From the NCBI GenBank assembly GCA_965261825.1, contig OZ253484.1, positions 65,184 through 129,183 of the forward strand: DNA of 64,000 nucleotides. The letters run 5' to 3'. The DNA comes from Dehalococcoidia bacterium (GTDB lineage: Bacteria > Chloroflexota > Dehalococcoidia > Lucifugimonadales > QGNO01). The notes under the pieces are model-generated. The model was not told the origin of the DNA, made no database searches, and saw only the letters and a list, made by a program, of their open reading frames with translations. The translations under genes and the position numbers were made by a program. Within the stretch, counting starts at the first letter, position 1; each line of letters begins with the position of its first letter. This document shows positions 1 to 9,938 of this stretch, piece after piece.

Positions 1-73
1 GCAGGGGGGTGAGGGAGTGGACCTTATACAAAGACTATGATACTGTACCGTCCAAGCAACTTGAGGTGGACCA

Positions 74-1273
74 ATGGAACTGACCGCCATATCCCTTTTT
101 ACGGGTGCTATGGGACTGGACTTGGGTTTCGAGCAAGAGGGGTTCGAAATCAAAGTAGCTGTAGAGAAAGACAGGACGGCGGTCGAGACGATAAAGGCAA
201 ATAGGCCCAATATTCCGGTAATCCAACAAGACATAAAGAACGTGCCTACGGAGGAAATCTTGTTGGAGGCCGGGCTAAGTGTTGGTGAAGCTACAGTAGT
301 GATAGGGGCGCCACCGTGTGAACCGTTTTCTACGGCGGGTAGAAGAAACGGTTTTTCCGACGATAGATCAAACGCAGTCGACGAGTTTATAAGGGTGATC
401 AGCGAAGCAAGACCGCGCTTCTTTGTCATGGAAGAGGTGGCTGGGTTTGTGCACTCGTCAAAGAAACACATCTCCTTTTACGAACGGGTAAAGAAAAAAG
501 AAGAAGACCTAGAAGAGGAAGAAAAGCTGGGGTCTGCCTTCCAGGAGATAATGGAGCACTTTCAAGGCTTGGGGTATGCGTTGAGCTATAACCCGGACAG
601 CCCCAAGTCTTCTATATTAAACGCTGCCGACTATGGAGTGCACCAGAAGCGAAAGAGGTTCATTCTGATAGGTTCGCGTGATGGTGGATCTGTGGGCCTT
701 CCATCTCCTGGATACGTTTCACAAGAGTCTGCGGAGGTGAAGCAAGGCTCCAAGAAAGCTTGGCGTACGCTGGCTGATGCGATTGGGGATGGCTTTGAAG
801 ACCCTATACCTGAACACAGACAATTCTCAAGAGTGTGGGCGCATTTCTTGGAGTATGTACCTGCAGGTGGATGTTGGAGGAACTTGCCTCCGGAAATGCA
901 TAAAGAAGCATTGGGCGGTGCTTATGATGACCCAGACAACGTAGAGACCAAAGGTCTAAAGGGTGGGAGGACGGGTTTTCTTAGAAAGTTAGCCTGGGAT
1001 CGGCCTGCTCCTACGTTGGTAGACTCTCCCACTTCAAAGTCCACATGCCTGTGCCATCCAAATAAAATGCGCCCTTTAACTGTAGGAGAATATTTGGCCC
1101 TTCAGGGATTTCCACTCTATTGGAAAGTTGTGGGGAAAACGACAGCCAAGTACCGCCTTATAGGCCAAGCAACACCTGTTGCACTGGCTGGTGCTGTTGC
1201 TAAAGCCATACTTGTCCACGAGATAGCGAGATCCCGGGCCAAAGAACCGCGCAAACCTGTAGCAATGACCTAA
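74..1273 (+). CDS. DNA (cytosine-5)-methyltransferase
   Basis: 399-aa ORF with ordered m5C-MTase motifs: I FTGAMGLDLGF, IV PPCEPFS, VI MEEV (ENV-like), VIII QKRKRFILIG, X GQATPV. GAGGTG lies 6 nt upstream of the ATG. Confidence 0.9.
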   Translation: MELTAISLFTGAMGLDLGFEQEGFEIKVAVEKDRTAVETIKANRPNIPVIQQDIKNVPTEEILLEAGLSVGEATVVIGAPPCEPFSTAGRRNGFSDDRSNAVDEFIRVISEARPRFFVMEEVAGFVHSSKKHISFYERVKKKEEDLEEEEKLGSAFQEIMEHFQGLGYALSYNPDSPKSSILNAADYGVHQKRKRFILIGSRDGGSVGLPSPGYVSQESAEVKQGSKKAWRTLADAIGDGFEDPIPEHRQFSRVWAHFLEYVPAGGCWRNLPPEMHKEALGGAYDDPDNVETKGLKGGRTGFLRKLAWDRPAPTLVDSPTSKSTCLCHPNKMRPLTVGEYLALQGFPLYWKVVGKTTAKYRLIGQATPVALAGAVAKAILVHEIARSRAKEPRKPVAMT

Positions 1274-1395
1274 ATAACGTACCTCGTGCCAGAACCTTGC
1301 GGCAAAACCTTGACACCGACTCAAGATTTTGGTAGAATCCTCTTGGGCCTGGAGAAAGTGCATCCAGAGTACTAAGGTTAATCAGGAGGAGATAA

Positions 1396-2532
1396 ATGAC
1401 ACAGGTTCACGCACTTAAAATCACTCAGTCCGGGATCGGCCCAAAGGGAGAGACAGTCAACTTATATATAGGCGCGCTATCACTCGGTAAACTCAGGGAA
1501 CATGCAAAAGTCGACTATTGGAGTCCAGATAATGATCAGGGCTATCAACGTCCTCTAGTAGACAGGCGTCTTCGTGATGTCGCTAAGTACGTCCGCGAGG
1601 AGCAGGGAATATTACCGACATCTGTGCTCCTTGCCACACGGCCAGATGACTCTGTATCGATAGACTTCAAGCCGATGGATGCATCAGACGGAGTTGGGGA
1701 GTGGGGACTGCTTTCGATTCCAGACGGAACCATTCTGTGGGTTGTAGATGGTCAACACCGTCTCTACGGTATAAACCGAGCATACGAGAAGGATGACGCT
1801 GTACAGCTAGAATCCTACCCATTCCCCATCTCGATTATGGAGATGGTAGACCAGTACGATGAGATGAACCACTTCAATATCATTAATACCCGTCAAAGAA
1901 AAATGTCCACGGACATTGTTGACCGGCATTTGGTAATCCGACAGCAAAAGGAAGGTCTAAACCTTATTGCTTCCGGAGGGCAAAGCGAGAAGGAATATCA
2001 TATAGCCACCGCCACCAGAATCGTGGACATGCTAAACGATGCTCAGAGCCCTTGGTATCATCAGATTGCTATACCGGGTGTCCCAGGACGGGACAAAGGG
2101 CTTGTACGTCAACATGCGATGGTAGTTTCGATTGACCCAGTACTCAAGGACAATTGGGTAAGAGCGCAACAGCCTATGGAGGAGCACGTAGTCAAGATCC
2201 TCACGAACTACTGGAATGCCCTTGCAGAGGTATGGCCTGAAGCCTTTCAAGCACCAGGGGATCACAGAATACAGGCTACTGTTGGAATATACTCTCTCCA
2301 TTTGGTACTGCCTGCAATTATTCAGAGATGCATGGCTGAGCGCGACCTGTCTCAAGGAAAGATAAAAGACTTAATACAGAGTACCGGGATTCAGTCTTCA
2401 TTCTGGAATAAGAGTTTAGACAAGGGCGGAGACCCTCTTACATTAGGTACTGGAATGGCCTCCATTCGTGCTCTGGCTCATTACATAATTGGAGTACTCC
2501 CCAGTACTTCGTCGCAGCCAGTTAAGCTATAG
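1396..2532 (+). CDS. DGQHR-domain protein (DndB/DpdB-like, ParB/Srx-type fold)
   Basis: 378-aa ORF with literal VVDGQHRLYGI motif and downstream FNIINTRQRKM. AGGAGG RBS upstream of the ATG. Family call from motif memory only. Confidence 0.7.
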   Translation: MTQVHALKITQSGIGPKGETVNLYIGALSLGKLREHAKVDYWSPDNDQGYQRPLVDRRLRDVAKYVREEQGILPTSVLLATRPDDSVSIDFKPMDASDGVGEWGLLSIPDGTILWVVDGQHRLYGINRAYEKDDAVQLESYPFPISIMEMVDQYDEMNHFNIINTRQRKMSTDIVDRHLVIRQQKEGLNLIASGGQSEKEYHIATATRIVDMLNDAQSPWYHQIAIPGVPGRDKGLVRQHAMVVSIDPVLKDNWVRAQQPMEEHVVKILTNYWNALAEVWPEAFQAPGDHRIQATVGIYSLHLVLPAIIQRCMAERDLSQGKIKDLIQSTGIQSSFWNKSLDKGGDPLTLGTGMASIRALAHYIIGVLPSTSSQPVKL

Positions 2533-2534
2533 AA

Positions 2535-3431
2535 GTGGTTGAAGAGGTCATGGGCCACAAGAGGTTTGCCGTCCAGCAGGCTGTGCTCGGCTGGGCGACA
2601 AACCATCTCCGTGACTATCCCTGGCGCAAGAAGCTTGATAACCCGTATGCCATTATAGTGGCAGAGCTGTTGTTGAAGCGGACCACTGCTAAGGCTGCCT
2701 CAAGGATTTATGAGGAGTTTCTGGGTGAGTTTCCTTCTGTGGAGAAACTAGCTTCGGCTACAGAGAAGGAGATGGTTCAAGCCTTTTCTGGGGTGGGTCT
2801 GCAATGGCAACGAGCAAGGGCTACAAAAAAGCTGGCCGACTATTTGATGGAAGAAGAGGATGGACACATACCCTGCGATTTGGAACGCTTGCTAGCTGTA
2901 CCCGGTCTTGGCGAATACAGCGCTAGAGCTGTGCTGTCGTTTGGATGTGATAAGCCAGTAGCGGTAGTGGATGTCAATGTGGAAAGGGTCTACTCCAGGG
3001 TATTTCAAAAGACCTTGCCAGAGAAACCAACACGCAACTTTCTCCAGTCTTTTGCTGAACAGCTCCTTCCGGCAGACCAGCATAGAGAGTACAACTTTGG
3101 GCTTTTAGATTTAGGAGGTCTGATTTGCAGATACGTAGACCCGTTATGCGGTCAGTGTCCTCTTAACGACGTATGTGATTATTACAGTTTTCGTGGGCCT
3201 AAACGGATTAGGGAAAGACCAGCTGAGTACATCACTTCCGGACCAGGCTCAAAGATCCGTAAGTTACGCAGGGAAAAGGGGATAGGGTTGGTGAAGCTGG
3301 CCCAAACCTCGGGCGTTTCCAAGCTGACCATCATTAAGGCAGAGGCTGGGAGAACAAAGCCAACGCGCCGAACACTAGAGAAGCTAGCAGTCGTCCTTGG
3401 AGTGGATGTCGATACACTTCTCACCAGTTGA
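2535..3431 (+). CDS. HhH-GPD DNA glycosylase (Mig/MutY-like, 4Fe-4S) fused to a C-terminal XRE-type HTH
   Basis: HhH VPGLGEYSARAVL (no EndoIII-type Lys) followed by the Asp region VVDVNVERV. Cluster CX6CX2CX5C (CRYVDPLCGQCPLNDVC). C-terminal IRKLRREKGIGLVKLAQTSGVSKLTIIKAEAG looks like HTH_3. Start is GTG 2535 or ATG 2550, 2 nt after the DGQHR stop. Confidence 0.8.
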   Translation: MVEEVMGHKRFAVQQAVLGWATNHLRDYPWRKKLDNPYAIIVAELLLKRTTAKAASRIYEEFLGEFPSVEKLASATEKEMVQAFSGVGLQWQRARATKKLADYLMEEEDGHIPCDLERLLAVPGLGEYSARAVLSFGCDKPVAVVDVNVERVYSRVFQKTLPEKPTRNFLQSFAEQLLPADQHREYNFGLLDLGGLICRYVDPLCGQCPLNDVCDYYSFRGPKRIRERPAEYITSGPGSKIRKLRREKGIGLVKLAQTSGVSKLTIIKAEAGRTKPTRRTLEKLAVVLGVDVDTLLTS

Positions 3432-3786
3432 AGTGAAGCTCAATAAGGCCGCCGTGTCGTTCGGGGTCGTAGTCTAGGATTGAGTCATCGTCTTCGTCAT
3501 CGGTGGTGTTGTGCAAGACCAGATCGTCTTGCCAGTCGTCCCAGGGGAGTGACCTCAGCCAGTCGATGATCTCGGTTCGCGCCGGTGCGTCAAGCTGCTT
3601 TCTTACGGCGAACTCGTCGAGCATGCGGAGCACCTGGCGCTGGCTGAAGCCGCCCCAGTTGTTGCCCTCGCCGTGCATGTAGCCGTTGGCGCCGGCTTCA
3701 ATGGCTAGCTCCCAGGCGAACTCATAGGCATGGCCTGTAGGGCGTGGCAGGTATTGGATTTTGATGATGCCGACATCTAGTCCCAT
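3421..3786 (-). CDS. hypothetical acidic protein
   Basis: 121-aa ORF with no recognisable motif. Asp/Glu/Trp-rich C-terminus (DDWQDDLVLHNTTDDEDDDSILDYDPE). Convergent 11-nt overlap with the glycosylase gene. Confidence 0.4.
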   Translation of the reverse strand: MGLDVGIIKIQYLPRPTGHAYEFAWELAIEAGANGYMHGEGNNWGGFSQRQVLRMLDEFAVRKQLDAPARTEIIDWLRSLPWDDWQDDLVLHNTTDDEDDDSILDYDPERHGGLIELHFNW

Positions 3787-3934
3787 GGCGGCCTCCGGGT
3801 TGTAGTTTCCGGGATTGTATCGGACCTTTGGCGGCGTGAGAGGACCCTTTTGTCGGGTTGTGGAGGTGGTTTTGGTGGCTGCGCCCGCTCATTTCCTTCG
3901 ACAGGCTCAGGATGAGCGGAGAGGGATGCACGGC

Positions 3935-4494
3935 CTGGGATGCTTCGTCGGCGGGGGTGGATGAAGGCTGGGGTGTCTGACCGACTCCTCAGCATGACAG
4001 GGGGGGTGTCCTCACGTGGGCGATTGACCCCGCGTCGCCACCAGATTGCTTCGGGTTCCCTCGCAATGACGATGGGGGTGTGCGCGGGAATGGGAGCAAA
4101 AAGGAGTCGTGTCCAGGAACGGTTCACCCCCATCTCAATCTTCCCCCATCAAGGGGGAAGAGGTTATGCAGAGGTCTGTCTGCGCGGGAATGACGGTGGT
4201 GTGGGTGCGGTGGTCTGGGATGCTTCGTCGGCGGGGGTGGTTGAGGGCGAGGGGTGTGCAACCGACTCCTCAGCATGACAGGGGGGTGTCCTCACGTGGG
4301 CGATTGACCCCGCGCCGCCGCCAGATTGCTACGCTGCGCTCGCAATGACGATGGGGGGGGTGCGTGGAAATGGGAGCAAAAAGGAGTCGTGTCCAGGAAC
4401 GGTTCACCCCCATCTCAATCTTCCCCCGTCAAGGGGGAAGAGGTTATGCAGAGGTCTGTCTGCGCGGGAACGACGGTGGGTGTGGGTAGACGGG
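3935..4494. repeat. two tandem copies (period 280 bp) of a composite intergenic repeat
   Basis: CTGGGATGCTTCGTCGGCGGGGGTGG... restarts at 3935 and 4215. Both copies run through ...GCAGAGGTCTGTCTGCGCGGGAA(T/C)GACGGTGG with few substitutions. Confidence 0.85.
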
Positions 4495-4511
4495 CAAACG
4501 GGCAGACAGGG

Positions 4512-4856
4512 TTAGAGGGCGAGGACGAGGAGGACGGTGACGACGGAGAGGGCGAGTGCGCTGAGGTGGCTGACGGCGGATGCGAGGCTCTTGGATACGG
4601 GCAGCTTGAAGTCGGCGGGGAGGGTGGCGATGCGATGGGCGGCGTGGAAGAGGGTCGTGGAGAGCAGGACGATGAGGAGCAGCTTGGAGACGGGGTTGCC
4701 GAGGAGGGAGAGGATGTTGTCGTAGACGACGGCGTCGGGCAGCCATCCGAGGGGGCCAGCGACGTTGTTGGCGAAGATGAGGGCGGGCAGTGCGAAGGCG
4801 GCGATGGTGCCGCCGACGCTGAAGAGGGCCCACCACATAGGTTCCAGCTTTTGCAT
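4512..4856 (-). CDS. frdD: fumarate reductase membrane anchor subunit D
   Basis: Only the last 114 codons of the long 4512..5756 ORF look real: MQKLEPMWWALFSVGGTIAAF...LFHAAHRIA resembles E. coli FrdD (EPxFWxLFxxGG, HR). ATG at 4854-4856. Confidence 0.6.
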   Translation of the reverse strand: MQKLEPMWWALFSVGGTIAAFALPALIFANNVAGPLGWLPDAVVYDNILSLLGNPVSKLLLIVLLSTTLFHAAHRIATLPADFKLPVSKSLASAVSHLSALALSVVTVLLVLAL

Positions 4857-8124: not shown

Positions 8125-9384
8125 ATGATTACCTCGGTCCGGCTGGTCAACTTCAAGAGCTTCGCAGACGAAACACTGCGCGTGGGTCCCTTCACCGTGA
8201 TAGTGGGAGCCAACGCCAGCGGCAAGAGCAACGTCCGGGACGCCTTCCGCTTCCTGCACGGCATAGGCCGAGGCTACACTCTGGCGGAGATTCTGGGCGG
8301 TAAGTACGGCGAGGGTGGGTACAGAGAATGGTACGGCATACGCGGAGCTCCGGGGGAAATCAGTCGCTTCGTAAAAACGTTGGAACCCAAACTAAGCGAC
8401 TTCTCTGTCCAGATAGAGCTTGTCTCGGGAAAGCGGAGGATTTTCTACTCTATCGAGGTTCGATTCAACCTGAGAAGGCCAGATAGGTTCCGAGTTCGGG
8501 AAGAAGAGCTAAGAGTCGGATCCCAGGTCATATACAAGACATTAAGAGGATATAAGGGTTCGAAATTGGCAGTCCTCATGGGGGGAGATAGTGAGCGTCG
8601 AGTTATGCTCAGTCGGATCCAACCCGTGTTGACACAACGCTGGGGATCTCGCTTTTGGACTTCAAAGTACGAGCAATACGTTCGCGAAGTTTACTCAACG
8701 CTTGAGAGTATGCGATTTCTGGAGTTGGTTCCTGAGCGGATGCGGGAGCCCGCCTTCCCCGGAGCCGCGGTTTTGGGCGACAGCGGCGAAAATTTGCCAA
8801 CCGTGCTTGAGGCAATCTGCGCTGATTCCGCGCAAAGAGACGTACTCATATCGTGGGCGCAGGAGCTTACGCCTATGGACGTAAAGGACCTGCTGTTTCC
8901 CCGTGACCCCAGTGGAAAGGTACATCTCCAAATCATTGAGCGCAGTGGGCGCAAAGTATCGGCCTACAGCGCTTCAGACGGAACGATGCGTTTTCTCGGG
9001 ATGCTAGCCGCGCTGTTCAGCCCGGATCCGGCTAAGACTTACTTCTTTGAGGAGATAGACAACGGCATACACCCAAACCGTCTGTGGCTCCTGTTGGAAC
9101 TGATTGAACGGCAGAGCGCAAAGAACGGCATACAGGTCATCACCACCACACACTCCCCGGATATGCTGCATTTCATCGACGACACCACCTTTGAGAATAC
9201 GTCCATAACCTACCGCGACGAGAAATCCGCGGACTCCATAATCAGGCCTGTAGCGGAACTGCCAAATGCCAGGGAGTTGCGGAAGTCCCAAGGCCTAGGC
9301 AGGCTGCATACAAGCGGCTGGATGGAGACGGCCCTGGCCTTCACGGAAGGCGGGTATGACGAGGATTCAGAGGACGGAGAATGA
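8125..9384 (+). CDS. ABC/AAA_21-type ATPase (OLD/PARIS AriA-like)
   Basis: The real start is probably ATG 8125 (MITSVRLVNFKSF). Walker A GANASGKSN, Walker B-like YFFEEIDNGIHP, H-loop TTHSPDML. Confidence 0.8.
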   Translation: MITSVRLVNFKSFADETLRVGPFTVIVGANASGKSNVRDAFRFLHGIGRGYTLAEILGGKYGEGGYREWYGIRGAPGEISRFVKTLEPKLSDFSVQIELVSGKRRIFYSIEVRFNLRRPDRFRVREEELRVGSQVIYKTLRGYKGSKLAVLMGGDSERRVMLSRIQPVLTQRWGSRFWTSKYEQYVREVYSTLESMRFLELVPERMREPAFPGAAVLGDSGENLPTVLEAICADSAQRDVLISWAQELTPMDVKDLLFPRDPSGKVHLQIIERSGRKVSAYSASDGTMRFLGMLAALFSPDPAKTYFFEEIDNGIHPNRLWLLLELIERQSAKNGIQVITTTHSPDMLHFIDDTTFENTSITYRDEKSADSIIRPVAELPNARELRKSQGLGRLHTSGWMETALAFTEGGYDEDSEDGE

Positions 9385-9938
9385 AAGTCCTTATCATCCC
9401 GGAGGACTTTCGAAAGGATCAGCACATTTTGAAGCCTCTTTTCTCCCGGCTGTTGAGAGAAATAGGCGCATCCAGCATCCGCGTTGAGATTTGCAGGGAT
9501 CACCTGATGGGCGGCGTCGGAGAGGCGTTGAAATCGGAACGCCTGAATGAAGTCGTGGAACGGCATAGAGGAATGACGGACATTTTCATACTGTGCGTAG
9601 ATAGGGATGGGAAAACCGGGAGGCGTCAGAGGCTTGACCAGCTTCAAGACCACTTTGGCCCTACCTTCCTTGCCGAGAACGCCTGGGAGGAGATTGAGAC
9701 CTGGGCTCTGGCAGGACTGGATTTGCCCGGCGACTGGCGTTGGCAGGAGGTTCGCGCAGAAGTTGACGTGAAAGAGCGGTACTTCGAACCGTTTGCCCGC
9801 CAGCGCGGCCTGTCCGGCACGCCCGCCGGCGGGCGTGAGGCGCTGGGCAAGGAGGCCGCGCGCAATATCGACACCATCCTGCAGAAGTGCCCGGAGGACT
9901 TTGGCTCGCTGGCCCAGCGGCTGGAGGCCGCGGTCTAA
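9381..9938 (+). CDS. small Toprim-like partner protein (DUF4276/DUF4435-like)
   Basis: 185 aa. Its start overlaps the ATPase stop (ATGA). N-terminal acidic strand VLIIPED and a DxD-type motif LCVDRDG resemble split Toprim. Exact family undetermined. Confidence 0.5.
   Translation: MKVLIIPEDFRKDQHILKPLFSRLLREIGASSIRVEICRDHLMGGVGEALKSERLNEVVERHRGMTDIFILCVDRDGKTGRRQRLDQLQDHFGPTFLAENAWEEIETWALAGLDLPGDWRWQEVRAEVDVKERYFEPFARQRGLSGTPAGGREALGKEAARNIDTILQKCPEDFGSLAQRLEAAV

What the first reader, a model, noticed from the sequence alone, without database searches (positions are those of the whole stretch)
74..3431. m5C methyltransferase + DGQHR (DndB-like) protein + Mig/MutY-like glycosylase::HTH cassette without a recognisable endonuclease
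Three co-directional genes: a 122-nt gap with a strong RBS, then a 2-nt gap. By eye they are clearly more AT-rich than the adjacent frd operon, and the cassette ends in a convergent overlap. Pairing an m5C MTase with a HhH-GPD T:G-mismatch glycosylase has a precedent (M.MthTI/Mig.MthI on plasmid pFV1, functionally like Dcm/Vsr). A DGQHR protein sandwiched between them is not an arrangement I recognise as a described system. DGQHR proteins are otherwise tied to DNA-modification systems (DndB in phosphorothioation, DpdB in 7-deazaguanine). Two hypotheses. (a) A solitary MTase with dedicated deamination repair and autoregulation. (b) A modification-linked defence in which the DGQHR protein and/or the glycosylase is the effector.
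Basis: partly seen in the sequence, partly recalled or inferred. Interest (0 to 1): 0.7.

Follow-up and report, generated by a model that had tools for sequence, protein, structure and literature searches.

The report
Nuclease-free methylase, ParB-like, mismatch-glycosylase cassette
This is a real, conserved three-gene island found in uncultured Dehalococcoidia: a cytosine DNA methylase, a repair enzyme for the T:G mismatches that methylated cytosines produce, and a ParB-like DNA-binding NTPase, with no restriction nuclease, a combination I could not find described anywhere.

Summary
Window 74-3431 encodes an m5C methyltransferase, a DGQHR (ParB-fold) protein and a glycosylase fused to an Xre-type HTH. 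The three genes form a 49% GC island in a 59-62% GC genome.

A near-identical relative (L023) shows a host-like phosphoesterase gene upstream, not a restriction enzyme. The same three-gene order recurs in at least seven other non-redundant Dehalococcoidia loci with different flanks, and the three families stay linked in rearranged loci.

The glycosylase is Mig.MthI-like (T:G/U:G), not MutY. Methylase and glycosylase co-vary as a pair. DGQHR is a swappable middle module: a second cassette type replaces it with a sigma-like protein plus a KorB/ParB-fold protein, in the same methylase/Mig-HTH frame and at the same chromosomal hot spot.

A conserved near-consensus promoter in the 122-nt gap drives DGQHR and the glycosylase as a separate unit. 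Neither cassette type has a nuclease domain.

Best reading: a Dcm/Vsr-like methylation-plus-deamination-repair module with a ParB-family NTPase partner whose role is inferred (a DpdB-like helper of the glycosylase). A nuclease-free defence role is not excluded. It is a new variant of a known kind, and I found no prior description.

The parts
1..73 (+). Leader upstream of the MTase, cut by the window edge. In relative L023 the full intergenic region is 416 nt and is followed by a divergent host gene.
   Evidence: No sigma-70-like site passed the scan here. No remnant of the small HTH ORF that precedes the MTase in L001, L011, L013 and L026.
74..1273 (+). C5-cytosine DNA methyltransferase (399 aa) of a distinct clade: PPCEPF instead of PCQ, GQATPV instead of GNAVP, and a large insertion after motif VI.
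   Evidence: PF00145 at 2.8e-54, TIGR00675 at 173 bits above cutoff. Best solved structure is M.HaeIII. Catalytic Cys and motif VI Glu are kept in all cassette MTases.
1310..1338 (+). Near-consensus sigma-70-type promoter (TTGACA, 17 nt, TAGAAT, with TG) for the DGQHR + glycosylase unit.
   Evidence: 11/12 match. TTGACR-17-TAnnnT sits at the same place in window, L023, L001, L002, L003, L004, L011 and L014; L016 has TTGACT-17-TACACT.
1339..1395 (+). 5' leader with a stem-loop (core CTGGA 1349-1353 / TCCAG 1363-1367), the conserved GTACTAA (1369-1375) and the RBS AGGAGGAG (1384-1391). In the predicted fold the 5' end pairs with the RBS.
   Evidence: The stem arms differ between loci but stay complementary. 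No Rfam match. Whether it acts as an RNA hairpin or as a DNA operator for the HTH is undecided.
1396..2532 (+). DGQHR protein (378 aa): an N-terminal ParB/Srx-fold NTPase-like domain plus a helical C-terminal domain, the DpdB/DndB-like architecture.
   Evidence: TIGR03187 above cutoff; DpdB and DndB models far below theirs. QR, DGQHR and FxxxN motifs are invariant in 65 sequences. AF2 pLDDT 90. Foldseek finds only ParB N-domains.
2535..3254 (+). Mig.MthI-type HhH-GPD [4Fe-4S] mismatch glycosylase domain (alternative start ATG at 2550).
   Evidence: 1KEA at 9e-36 over residues 8-217 of 221. The Mig specificity residues are conserved family-wide. The PADLOC 'Type II nicking endonuclease' model matches at 3.4e-37.
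3255..3431 (+). C-terminal Xre/Cro-type HTH domain fused to the glycosylase.
   Evidence: HTH_3 at 5.6e-10, residues 241-294. The fusion is present in all 120 listed homologues. The HTH is absent from the unfused glycosylases of L015, L016 and L020.
3421..3786 (-). 121-aa ORF of unknown family, convergent and overlapping by 11 nt. It is a recurrent neighbour of the cassette but probably a passenger of the hot spot rather than a component.
   Evidence: Homologues sit next to the cassette in L023 and L026 (convergent, downstream) and in L001 (divergent, upstream). GC is 0.585 and GC3 0.74, which is host-like. No family match.

Best explanation
This is a compact, horizontally exchanged, nuclease-free 'methylate and clean up' module with two transcription units. 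Unit 1 is an m5C DNA methyltransferase. Unit 2 is driven by a conserved near-consensus promoter in the 122-nt gap. It encodes a ParB-fold DGQHR NTPase, tightly coupled to a Mig.MthI-type glycosylase that removes T (or U) from the T:G (U:G) mismatches created when 5-methylcytosine (or cytosine) deaminates. That makes the glycosylase a functional analogue of Vsr next to Dcm. The C-terminal Xre-type HTH on the glycosylase most likely autoregulates unit 2, possibly through the inverted repeat just after the promoter. I infer that the DGQHR protein is an NTP-driven DNA clamp or scanner that loads or recycles the glycosylase on DNA. The precedent is its closest named relative, DpdB, whose ATPase activity is required for the base-flipping, glycosidic-bond-cleaving enzyme DpdA. 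Shown here: gene content, conservation, absence of a nuclease, the Mig-type active-site signature, the separate promoter, and the swappable ParB-fold middle module. Inferred: the repair role, autoregulation, and above all the cooperation between DGQHR and the glycosylase.
For: Conserved cassette in different flanks: L001, L002, L003, L011, L014, L004/5, L023. No REase: L023 has a host-GC Metallophos gene upstream, and the low-GC island is exactly the three genes. The glycosylase is Mig-like: 1KEA at 9e-36; E42, R47, A50, Y126, D144 and the four Cys are conserved in 115-120 of 120 homologues; position 187 is F/L/Y/W and never the Gln of MutY; the MutY C-terminal domain is absent. MTase and glycosylase co-vary (r = 0.65, Mantel p = 0.013), while DGQHR is decoupled. 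Two loci have a destroyed MTase but an intact glycosylase-HTH (the L026 deletion and the L024 IS insertion), so the glycosylase is not toxic without this MTase. DGQHR has all its NTPase-associated motifs invariant and no nuclease domain or SspE-type EHxxP motif. The best named model is DpdB, aligned over residues 4-324, and DpdB is an ATPase required for DpdA (PMC10164549). DGQHR and the glycosylase are separated by 2-17 nt or overlap and share a conserved promoter. A 2.1-kb tract covering exactly DGQHR plus the glycosylase is about 100% identical between the window and L023, inside 87-94% flanks. The sister cassette type B puts a KorB/ParB-fold protein in the same slot. Distant DGQHR proteins sit directly upstream of varied DNA-acting enzymes.
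Against: No experiment supports any step. DGQHR phylogeny does not track the glycosylase (r = 0.13), which is weak support for an obligate complex. Some DGQHR-clade members have no glycosylase nearby (L017, L018, L019, L021) or pair with PC4-like proteins instead. DpdA and DpdB did not form a stable complex in vitro, so the analogy is only functional. Simple repair does not obviously explain persistent compositional foreignness, residence in a hot spot with toxin-antitoxin-like genes, or module swapping; those features are typical of defence or selfish elements. Mig.MthI needs no NTPase partner.
Confidence: 0.45

Rival explanations
1. It is a nuclease-free, restriction-modification-like defence system. 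The MTase marks self DNA. The ParB-fold DGQHR NTPase, alone or by recruiting the glycosylase, acts on unmethylated incoming DNA by clamping or silencing it, or by directing base excision that leaves AP sites and breaks.
For: DGQHR occupies the slot that an EcoO109I-family REase has in the M-R-Mig operon of L020. The cassette is 4-11 GC points below its flanks in all 11 loci. It sits in a variable hot spot with TA-like and defence-like genes. The middle module is swapped between two ParB-fold alternatives, as effectors or sensors often are. DGQHR relatives neighbour R-M systems, a DUF262/GmrSD_N protein and nucleases. ParB-fold relatives include the defence NTPase/nickase SspE. The PADLOC model matching the glycosylase is filed as a restriction component.
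Against: No nuclease domain or motif in any component of either cassette type. The glycosylase carries the full Mig repair signature and survives intact where the MTase is destroyed (L024, L026). DGQHR + glycosylase sit behind a near-consensus promoter with no sign of delayed expression, which would be risky for a toxic effector on entering a new host (inference). The type B substitutes resemble regulators (ECF-sigma-like, KorB-like). No member is on viral contigs, plasmids or in PADLOC as a system.
Confidence: 0.27
2. DGQHR is a DndB-like transcriptional or epigenetic regulator. Together with the HTH it sets the level of methylase and repair enzyme, and it has no enzymatic role on DNA lesions.
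For: DndB is a DGQHR protein that negatively regulates the dnd modification operon (PMC4507180). The type B replacement is structurally closest to KorB, a ParB-family transcriptional repressor, and travels with a sigma-like protein. In both Dnd and Dpd the DGQHR protein belongs to the modification side. Conserved promoter and inverted-repeat architecture.
Against: The DndB model scores 26 bits against a cutoff of 328. The cassette already has one or two HTH regulators. Invariant NTPase-type motifs and a 378-aa two-domain protein are a lot of machinery for repressing a three-gene operon. No shared operator motif was identified.
Confidence: 0.18
3. The adjacency is incidental: three unrelated genes that happen to sit together in a defence or variable island.
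For: DGQHR-clade genes also occur next to unrelated R-M systems or IS elements (L018, L019) and alone beside ribonucleotide reductase genes in the 40% clade.
Against: The same order and spacing, a shared internal promoter and start/stop coupling appear in at least eight non-redundant loci spanning 43-99% DGQHR identity. The linkage survives rearrangement (L015, L016, L020). The island boundaries coincide with the three genes.
Confidence: 0.03

Closest known systems
M.MthTI / R.MthTI / Mig.MthI of Methanothermobacter plasmid pFV1 (m5C R-M system with a T:G mismatch glycosylase)
   Same: An m5C MTase is linked to a HhH-GPD [4Fe-4S] glycosylase whose best solved relative is Mig.MthI itself (1KEA, 9e-36), with the same specificity residues. 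Locus L020 shows the full M-R-Mig arrangement in this gene pool.
   Different: There is no restriction endonuclease. The glycosylase carries a C-terminal Xre-type HTH. A ParB-fold DGQHR protein lies between the MTase and the glycosylase.
Dcm / Vsr of Escherichia coli (orphan m5C methylase with very-short-patch repair)
   Same: The functional logic is the same: a cytosine methylase without a cognate nuclease, paired with an enzyme that corrects T:G mismatches from 5mC deamination.
   Different: Vsr is an endonuclease of an unrelated fold, and no Vsr family match was found. Here the repair is by base excision, with an extra NTPase-like partner and a fused regulator, and the module is compositionally foreign and exchangeable.
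DpdA / DpdB of the Dpd 7-deazaguanine system
   Same: A DGQHR/ParB-fold protein with the same two-domain architecture is encoded next to an enzyme that flips a base and cleaves its glycosidic bond. DpdB's ATPase activity is required for that enzyme. DpdB is the best named model for the window protein, aligned over residues 4-324.
   Different: The score is 82 bits against a cutoff of 300. There is no TGT-like DpdA, no DpdC and no dpdD-K genes. The partner is a hydrolytic HhH-GPD glycosylase, not a transglycosylase. The motif is DGQHR rather than DpdB's DGQQR.
DndB of the Dnd phosphorothioation system
   Same: DGQHR domain (PF14072 hit), association with a DNA modification enzyme, and a possible regulatory role.
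   Different: TIGR03233 scores 26 bits against a cutoff of 328. There are no dndA/C/D/E or dndFGH neighbours.
KorB / ParB / Noc CTP-dependent DNA clamps
   Same: The ParB N-domain fold is seen in the DGQHR protein (weakly) and clearly in the type B substitute (KorB 8qa8 at 3.8e-4, prob 1.0). Clamp or repressor behaviour is plausible.
   Different: No detectable sequence homology, no partition ParA partner, and no parS-like site identified.

Membership tests
C5-cytosine DNA methyltransferase (PF00145 / TIGR00675) | Whole-protein score above the curated cutoff, with the ten-motif framework including the catalytic Pro-Cys (motif IV) and the Glu of motif VI | tested here: met
   185 bits (cutoff 22) and 173 bits (cutoff 100.65). 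PPCEPF and E-E-V are present and conserved across cassette MTases, with clade-specific deviations (PCE not PCQ, GQATPV not GNAVPV). Methyl-transfer activity and the target motif were not tested.
DGQHR domain family (TIGR03187 / PF14072) | Score above cutoff, plus the QR pair, the DGQHR pentapeptide and the FxxxN motif | tested here: met
   121.9 bits (cutoff 58.85). Q51-R52, D118/Q120/R122 and F160/N164 are invariant, and G119/H121 are at least 90% conserved, in 65 sequences. Motif definitions come from PMC4619093.
DpdB (NF041060 equivalog) | Score of at least 300 bits and a dpdA (TGT-like) / dpdC neighbourhood | tested here: not met
   82.4 bits. No TGT-like gene in any of the loci examined.
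DndB (TIGR03233 equivalog) | Score of at least 328 bits and a dndCDE neighbourhood | tested here: not met
   26.4 bits. No dnd genes nearby.
Mig.MthI-type T:G/U:G mismatch glycosylase (HhH-GPD, Nth/MutY clan) | HhH-GPD fold with catalytic Asp (D144); Glu (E42); Tyr in place of the Nth lysine (Y126); Ala at position 50 and a hydrophobic residue at 187 (MutY has Val/Gln); a 4-Cys Fe-S loop; no MutY C-terminal domain | tested here: met
   1KEA at 9e-36, aligned over residues 8-217 of 221. The window protein has E, R, A, Y, D, F, with Y at position 27 and all four Cys. The family-wide counts are and the residue roles come from PMC2714593. An HTH follows the catalytic domain instead of a NUDIX-like domain.
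Mig.MthI-type T:G/U:G mismatch glycosylase | Measured excision of T or U opposite G | not testable with these tools
   Needs a glycosylase assay on T:G and U:G oligonucleotides.
MutY adenine glycosylase (TIGR01084 equivalog) | Score of at least 286.5 bits; V45/Q182-type adenine pocket; C-terminal 8-oxoG-recognition domain | tested here: not met
   175 bits. Ala and Phe occupy the two pocket positions. The alignment stops at about residue 218 and an HTH follows.
Type II restriction-modification system | A cognate restriction endonuclease encoded next to the methyltransferase | tested here: not met
   No REase family match in the three proteins or in ORF121. The upstream gene in L023 is a host-GC Metallophos gene. 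Flanks differ between loci with no shared fourth gene. REases are recognisable in this gene pool when present: RE_EcoO109I in L020 and MvaI_BcnI in L018. A completely novel nuclease fold within DGQHR cannot be excluded.
SspE-type ParB-fold NTPase/nickase | C-terminal nuclease domain with the EHxxP motif | tested here: not met
   There is no conserved E-H-x-x-P among the invariant or near-invariant columns. The motif definition comes from PMC10164549. No GmrSD/DUF1524 hit.
R-M controller (C) protein-type regulation | An Xre-type HTH plus a defined palindromic operator (C-box) at the regulated promoter | tested here: inconclusive
   The HTH_3 domain is present. An inverted repeat follows the -10 element in every canonical locus, but its sequence differs between loci and it could equally be an RNA hairpin. 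Eight sequences are too few for a covariation test.

The most novel reading that the evidence does not exclude
The cassette is a new kind of nuclease-free, methylation-gated immunity or exclusion system. A ParB-superfamily NTP-switch protein (DGQHR in type A, a KorB-like protein with a sigma-like partner in type B) loads on target sites that lack the cassette's m5C mark. It then either spreads to silence the foreign DNA or hands it to the tethered Mig-type glycosylase for base excision. The same glycosylase doubles as the repair enzyme that pays the mutational cost of self-methylation.
Probability: 0.15. Interest if true: 0.85.

Novelty: new variant of a known kind. Interest (0 to 1): 0.6.

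Why it matters
Pairing a cytosine methylase with dedicated T:G repair is a known solution to the mutagenic cost of 5-methylcytosine (Dcm/Vsr, MthTI/Mig). Two things are new here. First, the pair travels as a self-contained, exchangeable island with no nuclease. Second, a ParB-superfamily NTPase-like protein is a constant third member, in two structurally related but sequence-unrelated versions. DGQHR proteins are poorly understood: DndB is a regulator, and DpdB is an ATPase needed by a DNA transglycosylase. A minimal three-gene system that couples one to a simple, assayable glycosylase would be a tractable model for what these ParB-fold partners do for base-flipping enzymes. If the module instead proves to be defensive, it would be a restriction-like system that works without a nuclease. 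It also bears on why orphan methylases persist and spread.

Tried and rejected
- Exact-sequence look-ups of the window MTase and DGQHR found nothing. The source context was recovered through the glycosylase homologue P0121.
- The viral-contig scan found no relative. Plasmids and phages hold only 21-32% identical DGQHR proteins in other contexts.
- Sequence profiles of the DGQHR family and of the type B 430-aa family against PDB gave nothing significant. hhalign between the two families gave nothing. Only structure prediction plus Foldseek showed the ParB fold, and the match is weak for DGQHR (best E 0.011).
- The upstream Metallophos gene was considered as a hidden nuclease partner. I rejected this: it has host GC, belongs to a conserved host backbone, and is absent next to the cassette in L002 and L003.
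- The glycosylase as a restriction glycosylase (R.PabI-like logic) or as a 5mC-excising ROS1/DME-like enzyme: disfavoured by the full Mig signature and by intact glycosylase genes next to destroyed MTases.
- No direct or inverted repeats bracket the cassette, so no att or IS boundaries were found. There is no Rfam family in 1-4600.
P0121 and P0178 are scored 'neither' there, although direct inspection shows DGQHR neighbours.
- The leader alignment has too few and too divergent sequences for a formal covariation test.
- The PycTM label on a neighbouring gene in L023 was not reproduced by my own Pfam scan.

Full report
**1. The observation**

The window holds three co-directional ORFs at 74-1273, 1396-2532 and 2535-3431.
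- **First ORF:** a C5-cytosine methyltransferase (PF00145 at 2.8e-54; TIGR00675 at 173 bits, cutoff 100.65).
- **Second ORF:** a DGQHR-domain protein (TIGR03187 at 121.9 bits, cutoff 58.85; PF14072).
- **Third ORF:** an HhH-GPD glycosylase with an HTH_3 domain at residues 241-294.

The gaps are 122 nt and 2 nt. The second gap is 17 nt if the ATG at 2550 is the true start, as called in a close relative. GC is 0.48-0.52 over the cassette and 0.58-0.66 from about 3250 through the frd operon. GC3 is 0.48-0.52 against 0.78-0.86. A 121-aa minus-strand ORF (3421-3786) overlaps the cassette end by 11 nt.

**2. What lies upstream**

The window starts 73 nt before the MTase. The window's own proteins are not in the contig index. 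A glycosylase homologue (P0121, 98% identical) led to L023, a 2.44-Mb metagenomic contig with the same gene order, including ORF121 and the frd operon. Protein identities to the window are MTase 92.5%, DGQHR 99.5% and glycosylase 99%.

In L023 the MTase is preceded by a 416-nt gap and a divergent 418-aa Metallophos gene with 65-69% GC. That gene belongs to a conserved host backbone (Pterin_bind, HPPK, Trm112p, CopD-like, AhpC, Metallophos). The low-GC island is therefore exactly the three genes. No restriction endonuclease is present, and no repeats bracket the island.

**3. Is the arrangement conserved?**

The DGQHR protein has 138 homologous clusters at E ≤ 1e-5, full length, from 93% down to about 40% identity. 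An exhaustive search of 1.84 billion representatives shows that the cassette-type clade is only a handful of 50%-identity clusters, inside a moderate family (108 at ≤ 1e-30; 1,269 at ≤ 1e-3). The only reference genomes that carry it are three Dehalococcoidia MAGs. There are none on viral contigs. Plasmids and phages have only 21-32% identical DGQHR proteins.

Neighbourhoods:
- **Canonical order.** MTase, DGQHR, glycosylase-HTH occurs in the window/L023, L001, L002 (= L010), L003 (= L012), L011 and L014.
- **Duplicated DGQHR.** L004/L005 have the canonical order with two DGQHR genes.
- **Decayed copy.** In L026 one deletion removed MTase residues 55-399 together with DGQHR residues 1-43.
- **Flanks.** They differ or are inverted relative to the cassette, and no fourth gene is shared.
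- **Rearranged loci.** Linkage survives rearrangement. In L016 an unfused glycosylase lies divergent from MTase-DGQHR. L015 has the same layout, plus an unassigned 266-aa ORF and a GmrSD_N protein. In L020 the DGQHR gene sits 2.3 kb from a complete MTase / EcoO109I-family REase / Mig operon.

Counting non-redundant loci of the ≥43% clade, an m5C MTase lies within 5 kb in all 12 where the flank is visible, and a Mig-like glycosylase in 12 of 16. The exceptions are L017 (followed by a PC4-like ORF), L018 (next to an MvaI/BcnI-type R-M pair and an IS), L019 (an IS) and L021 (a short contig). At about 40% identity the DGQHR gene stands alone beside class II ribonucleotide reductase genes, which marks the edge of the cassette clade. 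In all 11 loci measured the cassette is 4-11 GC points below its flanks.

**4. The glycosylase is Mig-type, not MutY**

The best solved-structure match is 1KEA, Mig.MthI (9e-36, residues 8-217 of 221), ahead of MutY catalytic domains. The MutY equivalog model scores 175 bits against a cutoff of 286.5. The published Mig determinants are E42, R47, A50, Y126, D144, L187 and F27, against MutY V45, Q182 and S120 (PMC2714593). They are matched as follows:
- The window protein has E, R, A, Y, D, F and Y at these positions.
- Across 120 homologues, E and R are 119/120, position 50 is Ala in 115 and Ser in 4, and Y and D are 120/120.
- Position 187 is F, L, Y or W, never Gln.
- The four Fe-S cysteines are kept.
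- The MutY C-terminal domain is replaced by the HTH.

PADLOC's closest model is a 221-position 'Type II nicking endonuclease' (3.4e-37). I take this to be a REBASE-derived Mig-like entry, which is an inference. The glycosylase-HTH fusion family has at least 298 clusters, and all 120 listed carry both domains.

**5. The DGQHR protein**

The QR pair, the DGQHR motif and FxxxN are invariant or nearly so in 65 sequences. The AlphaFold model is confident (pLDDT 90, pTM 0.85). Foldseek against PDB returns only weak matches. The consistent ones are ParB N-terminal CTP-binding domains (6sdk, 5k5a/5k5d, 6ryk; probabilities 0.85-0.96). The helical C-terminal half has no match. No nuclease domain is detected, and SspE's EHxxP nicking motif is absent.

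The best named model is DpdB (82 bits over residues 4-324, far below the 300-bit cutoff). DndB scores 26 bits. It is therefore a DGQHR protein with DpdB/DndB-like architecture but a member of neither family. DpdB is experimentally a ParB-family ATPase required for the DNA transglycosylase DpdA, without forming a stable complex (PMC10164549). DndB is a negative regulator of the dnd operon (PMC4507180).

**6. Who goes with whom**

Pairwise identity matrices over nine loci show that MTase and glycosylase co-vary (r = 0.65, Mantel p = 0.013). DGQHR is decoupled from both (r = 0.13 and -0.05). The signal comes largely from L015 and L020, where DGQHR is still 55-61% identical to the window's but the MTase and glycosylase are a different lineage (37-45%; conventional PCQ/ENV/GNAVP motifs). 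So MTase plus Mig is the coherent pair, and DGQHR is a module that has been combined with different pairs.

**7. A sister cassette with a different ParB-fold protein**

L030 is at the same chromosomal hot spot (Metallophos | cassette | ... tRNA synthetase), and L024 is on an ICE-like stretch with its MTase split by an IS. Both carry MTase, a 252-255-aa ECF-sigma-like protein, a 426-430-aa protein, and the Mig-HTH fusion.

The 430-aa family has at least 161 clusters and no Pfam domain. Sequence profiles fail to place it. Its AlphaFold model (pLDDT 83) matches KorB, Noc, ParB, Spo0J and PadC in all of the top ~28 Foldseek hits (best E 3.8e-4; probabilities 0.75-1.00, mostly ≥0.92).

The MTases of both types belong to one clade (PPCEPF, GQATPV). 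A Mig-HTH 88% identical to the window's (P0122) shares a contig length with a type B ParB-like protein. By contig-length fingerprint, Mig-HTH clusters co-reside with the DGQHR family in at least 12 cases, with the 430-aa family in at least 15, and never with both (these are lower bounds). The constant theme is m5C MTase + ParB-superfamily protein + Mig-HTH, with no nuclease in either type.

**8. Regulation**

The 122-nt gap holds TTGACA, 17 nt, TAGAAT with an upstream TG (1310-1338; 11/12 match). The same TTGACR-17-TAnnnT sits at the same place in every canonical locus. DGQHR and the glycosylase-HTH are thus a separate, potentially strongly expressed unit, and the MTase has no comparable promoter in the 73 nt available.

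The transcribed leader carries a stem-loop whose arms differ between loci but stay complementary, followed by GTACTAA in the closer relatives. In the window the predicted fold also pairs the 5' end with the RBS. It matches no Rfam family. It could be an RNA element or the HTH's operator; the data do not decide. Some loci (L001, L011, L013, L026) have an extra small HTH ORF just upstream of the MTase, in the manner of a C protein. The window and L023 do not.

**9. Interpretation**

*Best supported for the MTase/Mig-HTH frame.* It is a Dcm/Vsr-like or MthTI/Mig-like pairing in which the glycosylase corrects T:G mismatches from 5mC deamination. Intact glycosylase genes beside destroyed MTases (L024, L026) argue that the glycosylase is not a restriction effector kept in check by this MTase.

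*The ParB-fold partner.* I commit, at modest confidence, to an NTP-driven DNA clamp or scanner that serves the glycosylase. The grounds are tight coupling and a shared promoter, the DpdB/DpdA precedent, the pattern of distant DGQHR proteins sitting just upstream of assorted DNA enzymes, and a 2.1-kb tract covering DGQHR plus the glycosylase that is about 100% identical between the window and L023 inside 87-94% flanks.

*Against this reading.* DGQHR does not co-vary with the glycosylase. Some clade members lack a glycosylase. Simple repair does not explain compositional foreignness, hot-spot residence or module swapping.

*The main rival.* A nuclease-free restriction-like defence, with the ParB-fold protein as sensor or effector. 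DGQHR's position in the REase slot of an M-R-Mig operon supports it. The absence of any nuclease motif and the unguarded strong promoter count against it. A purely regulatory (DndB/KorB-like) role is the third option.

**10. Novelty**

Full-text searches found no paper describing a DGQHR/DndB-like protein with a glycosylase and a cytosine methylase. PADLOC has no such system. The M + Mig logic is known. The nuclease-free island, the HTH fusion and the obligatory, swappable ParB-fold partner are not. I rate it a new variant of a known kind, of moderate to good interest. Function is unproven and the hosts are uncultured, but the cassette is small enough for direct heterologous testing.

Noticed in passing
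window 1050-3150 against L023 8501-10601: Nucleotide identity is about 100% across 2.1 kb (the 3' end of the MTase, DGQHR and the glycosylase catalytic domain), while both flanks, including the MTase 5' two-thirds with its target-recognition region, are only 85-94% identical. This looks like a recent recombination or gene-conversion tract between strains.
   Followed up: partly
window 3421-3786 (-); L001 8064-8345 (-); L026 7992-8276 (-): The unassigned 121-aa ORF has homologues (33-51% identity) directly beside the cassette in other genomes. It is sometimes downstream and convergent, once upstream and divergent next to a UPF0150/HicB-like gene. Its GC is host-like. It may be a TA-like passenger of the hot spot.
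   Followed up: partly
window 3932-4491: A tandem duplication of a roughly 280-nt unit (88-96% identical copies) lies in the intergenic stretch between ORF121 and the frd operon. Each copy carries the palindrome TCTTCCCCC(A/G)TCAAGGGGGAAGA. The long 'ORFs' listed there are probably spurious.
   Followed up: no
L030 4476-8915; L024 1772-7879: A sister 'type B' cassette: the same MTase clade and Mig-HTH, but the middle slot holds an ECF-sigma-like 252-255-aa protein plus a 426-430-aa KorB/ParB-fold protein. That family has at least 161 clusters and no Pfam domain, and one member is from a Melainabacteria MAG.
   Followed up: yes
L006 7438-14706; L008 7540-16533: DGQHR homologues at about 40% identity stand alone, divergent from a class II ribonucleotide reductase gene and near a second RNR gene, with NrdR in L006. 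This context is conserved in two unrelated contigs.
   Followed up: no
L017 1467-1835; L020 8236-10347: In the 54-57% clade the DGQHR gene is followed by a PC4-like (ssDNA-binding) ORF. In L017 it follows directly. In L020 it comes after two unassigned ORFs of 206 and 403 aa. This may be a different DGQHR system.
   Followed up: no
L026 5612-7900; L024 1772-4248: Decayed cassettes. In L026 a single deletion joins MTase residue 54 to DGQHR residue 44. In L024 the MTase is split by a DDE transposase. The glycosylase-HTH is intact in both.
   Followed up: yes
L001 8522-8677; L011 6513-6686; L013 1056-1220; L026 5612-5779: An extra small Xre-type HTH ORF lies immediately upstream of the MTase, placed like an R-M controller protein. 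It is absent from the window and L023.
   Followed up: partly
window about 8250-9500 (L023 15713-17516): A second lower-GC patch (0.52-0.56) lies beyond the frd operon, with small ORFs. The contig index labels one PycTM and another DUF2513. My own Pfam scan did not reproduce the PycTM label. The stretch from the Metallophos gene to the tRNA synthetase gene looks like a variable hot spot.
   Followed up: no
L004 10001-12224; L005 5634-7857: A tandem duplication of the DGQHR gene (373 and 358 aa, each about 38-43% identical to the window's) sits inside an otherwise canonical cassette with a longer 314-nt MTase-DGQHR gap.
   Followed up: no
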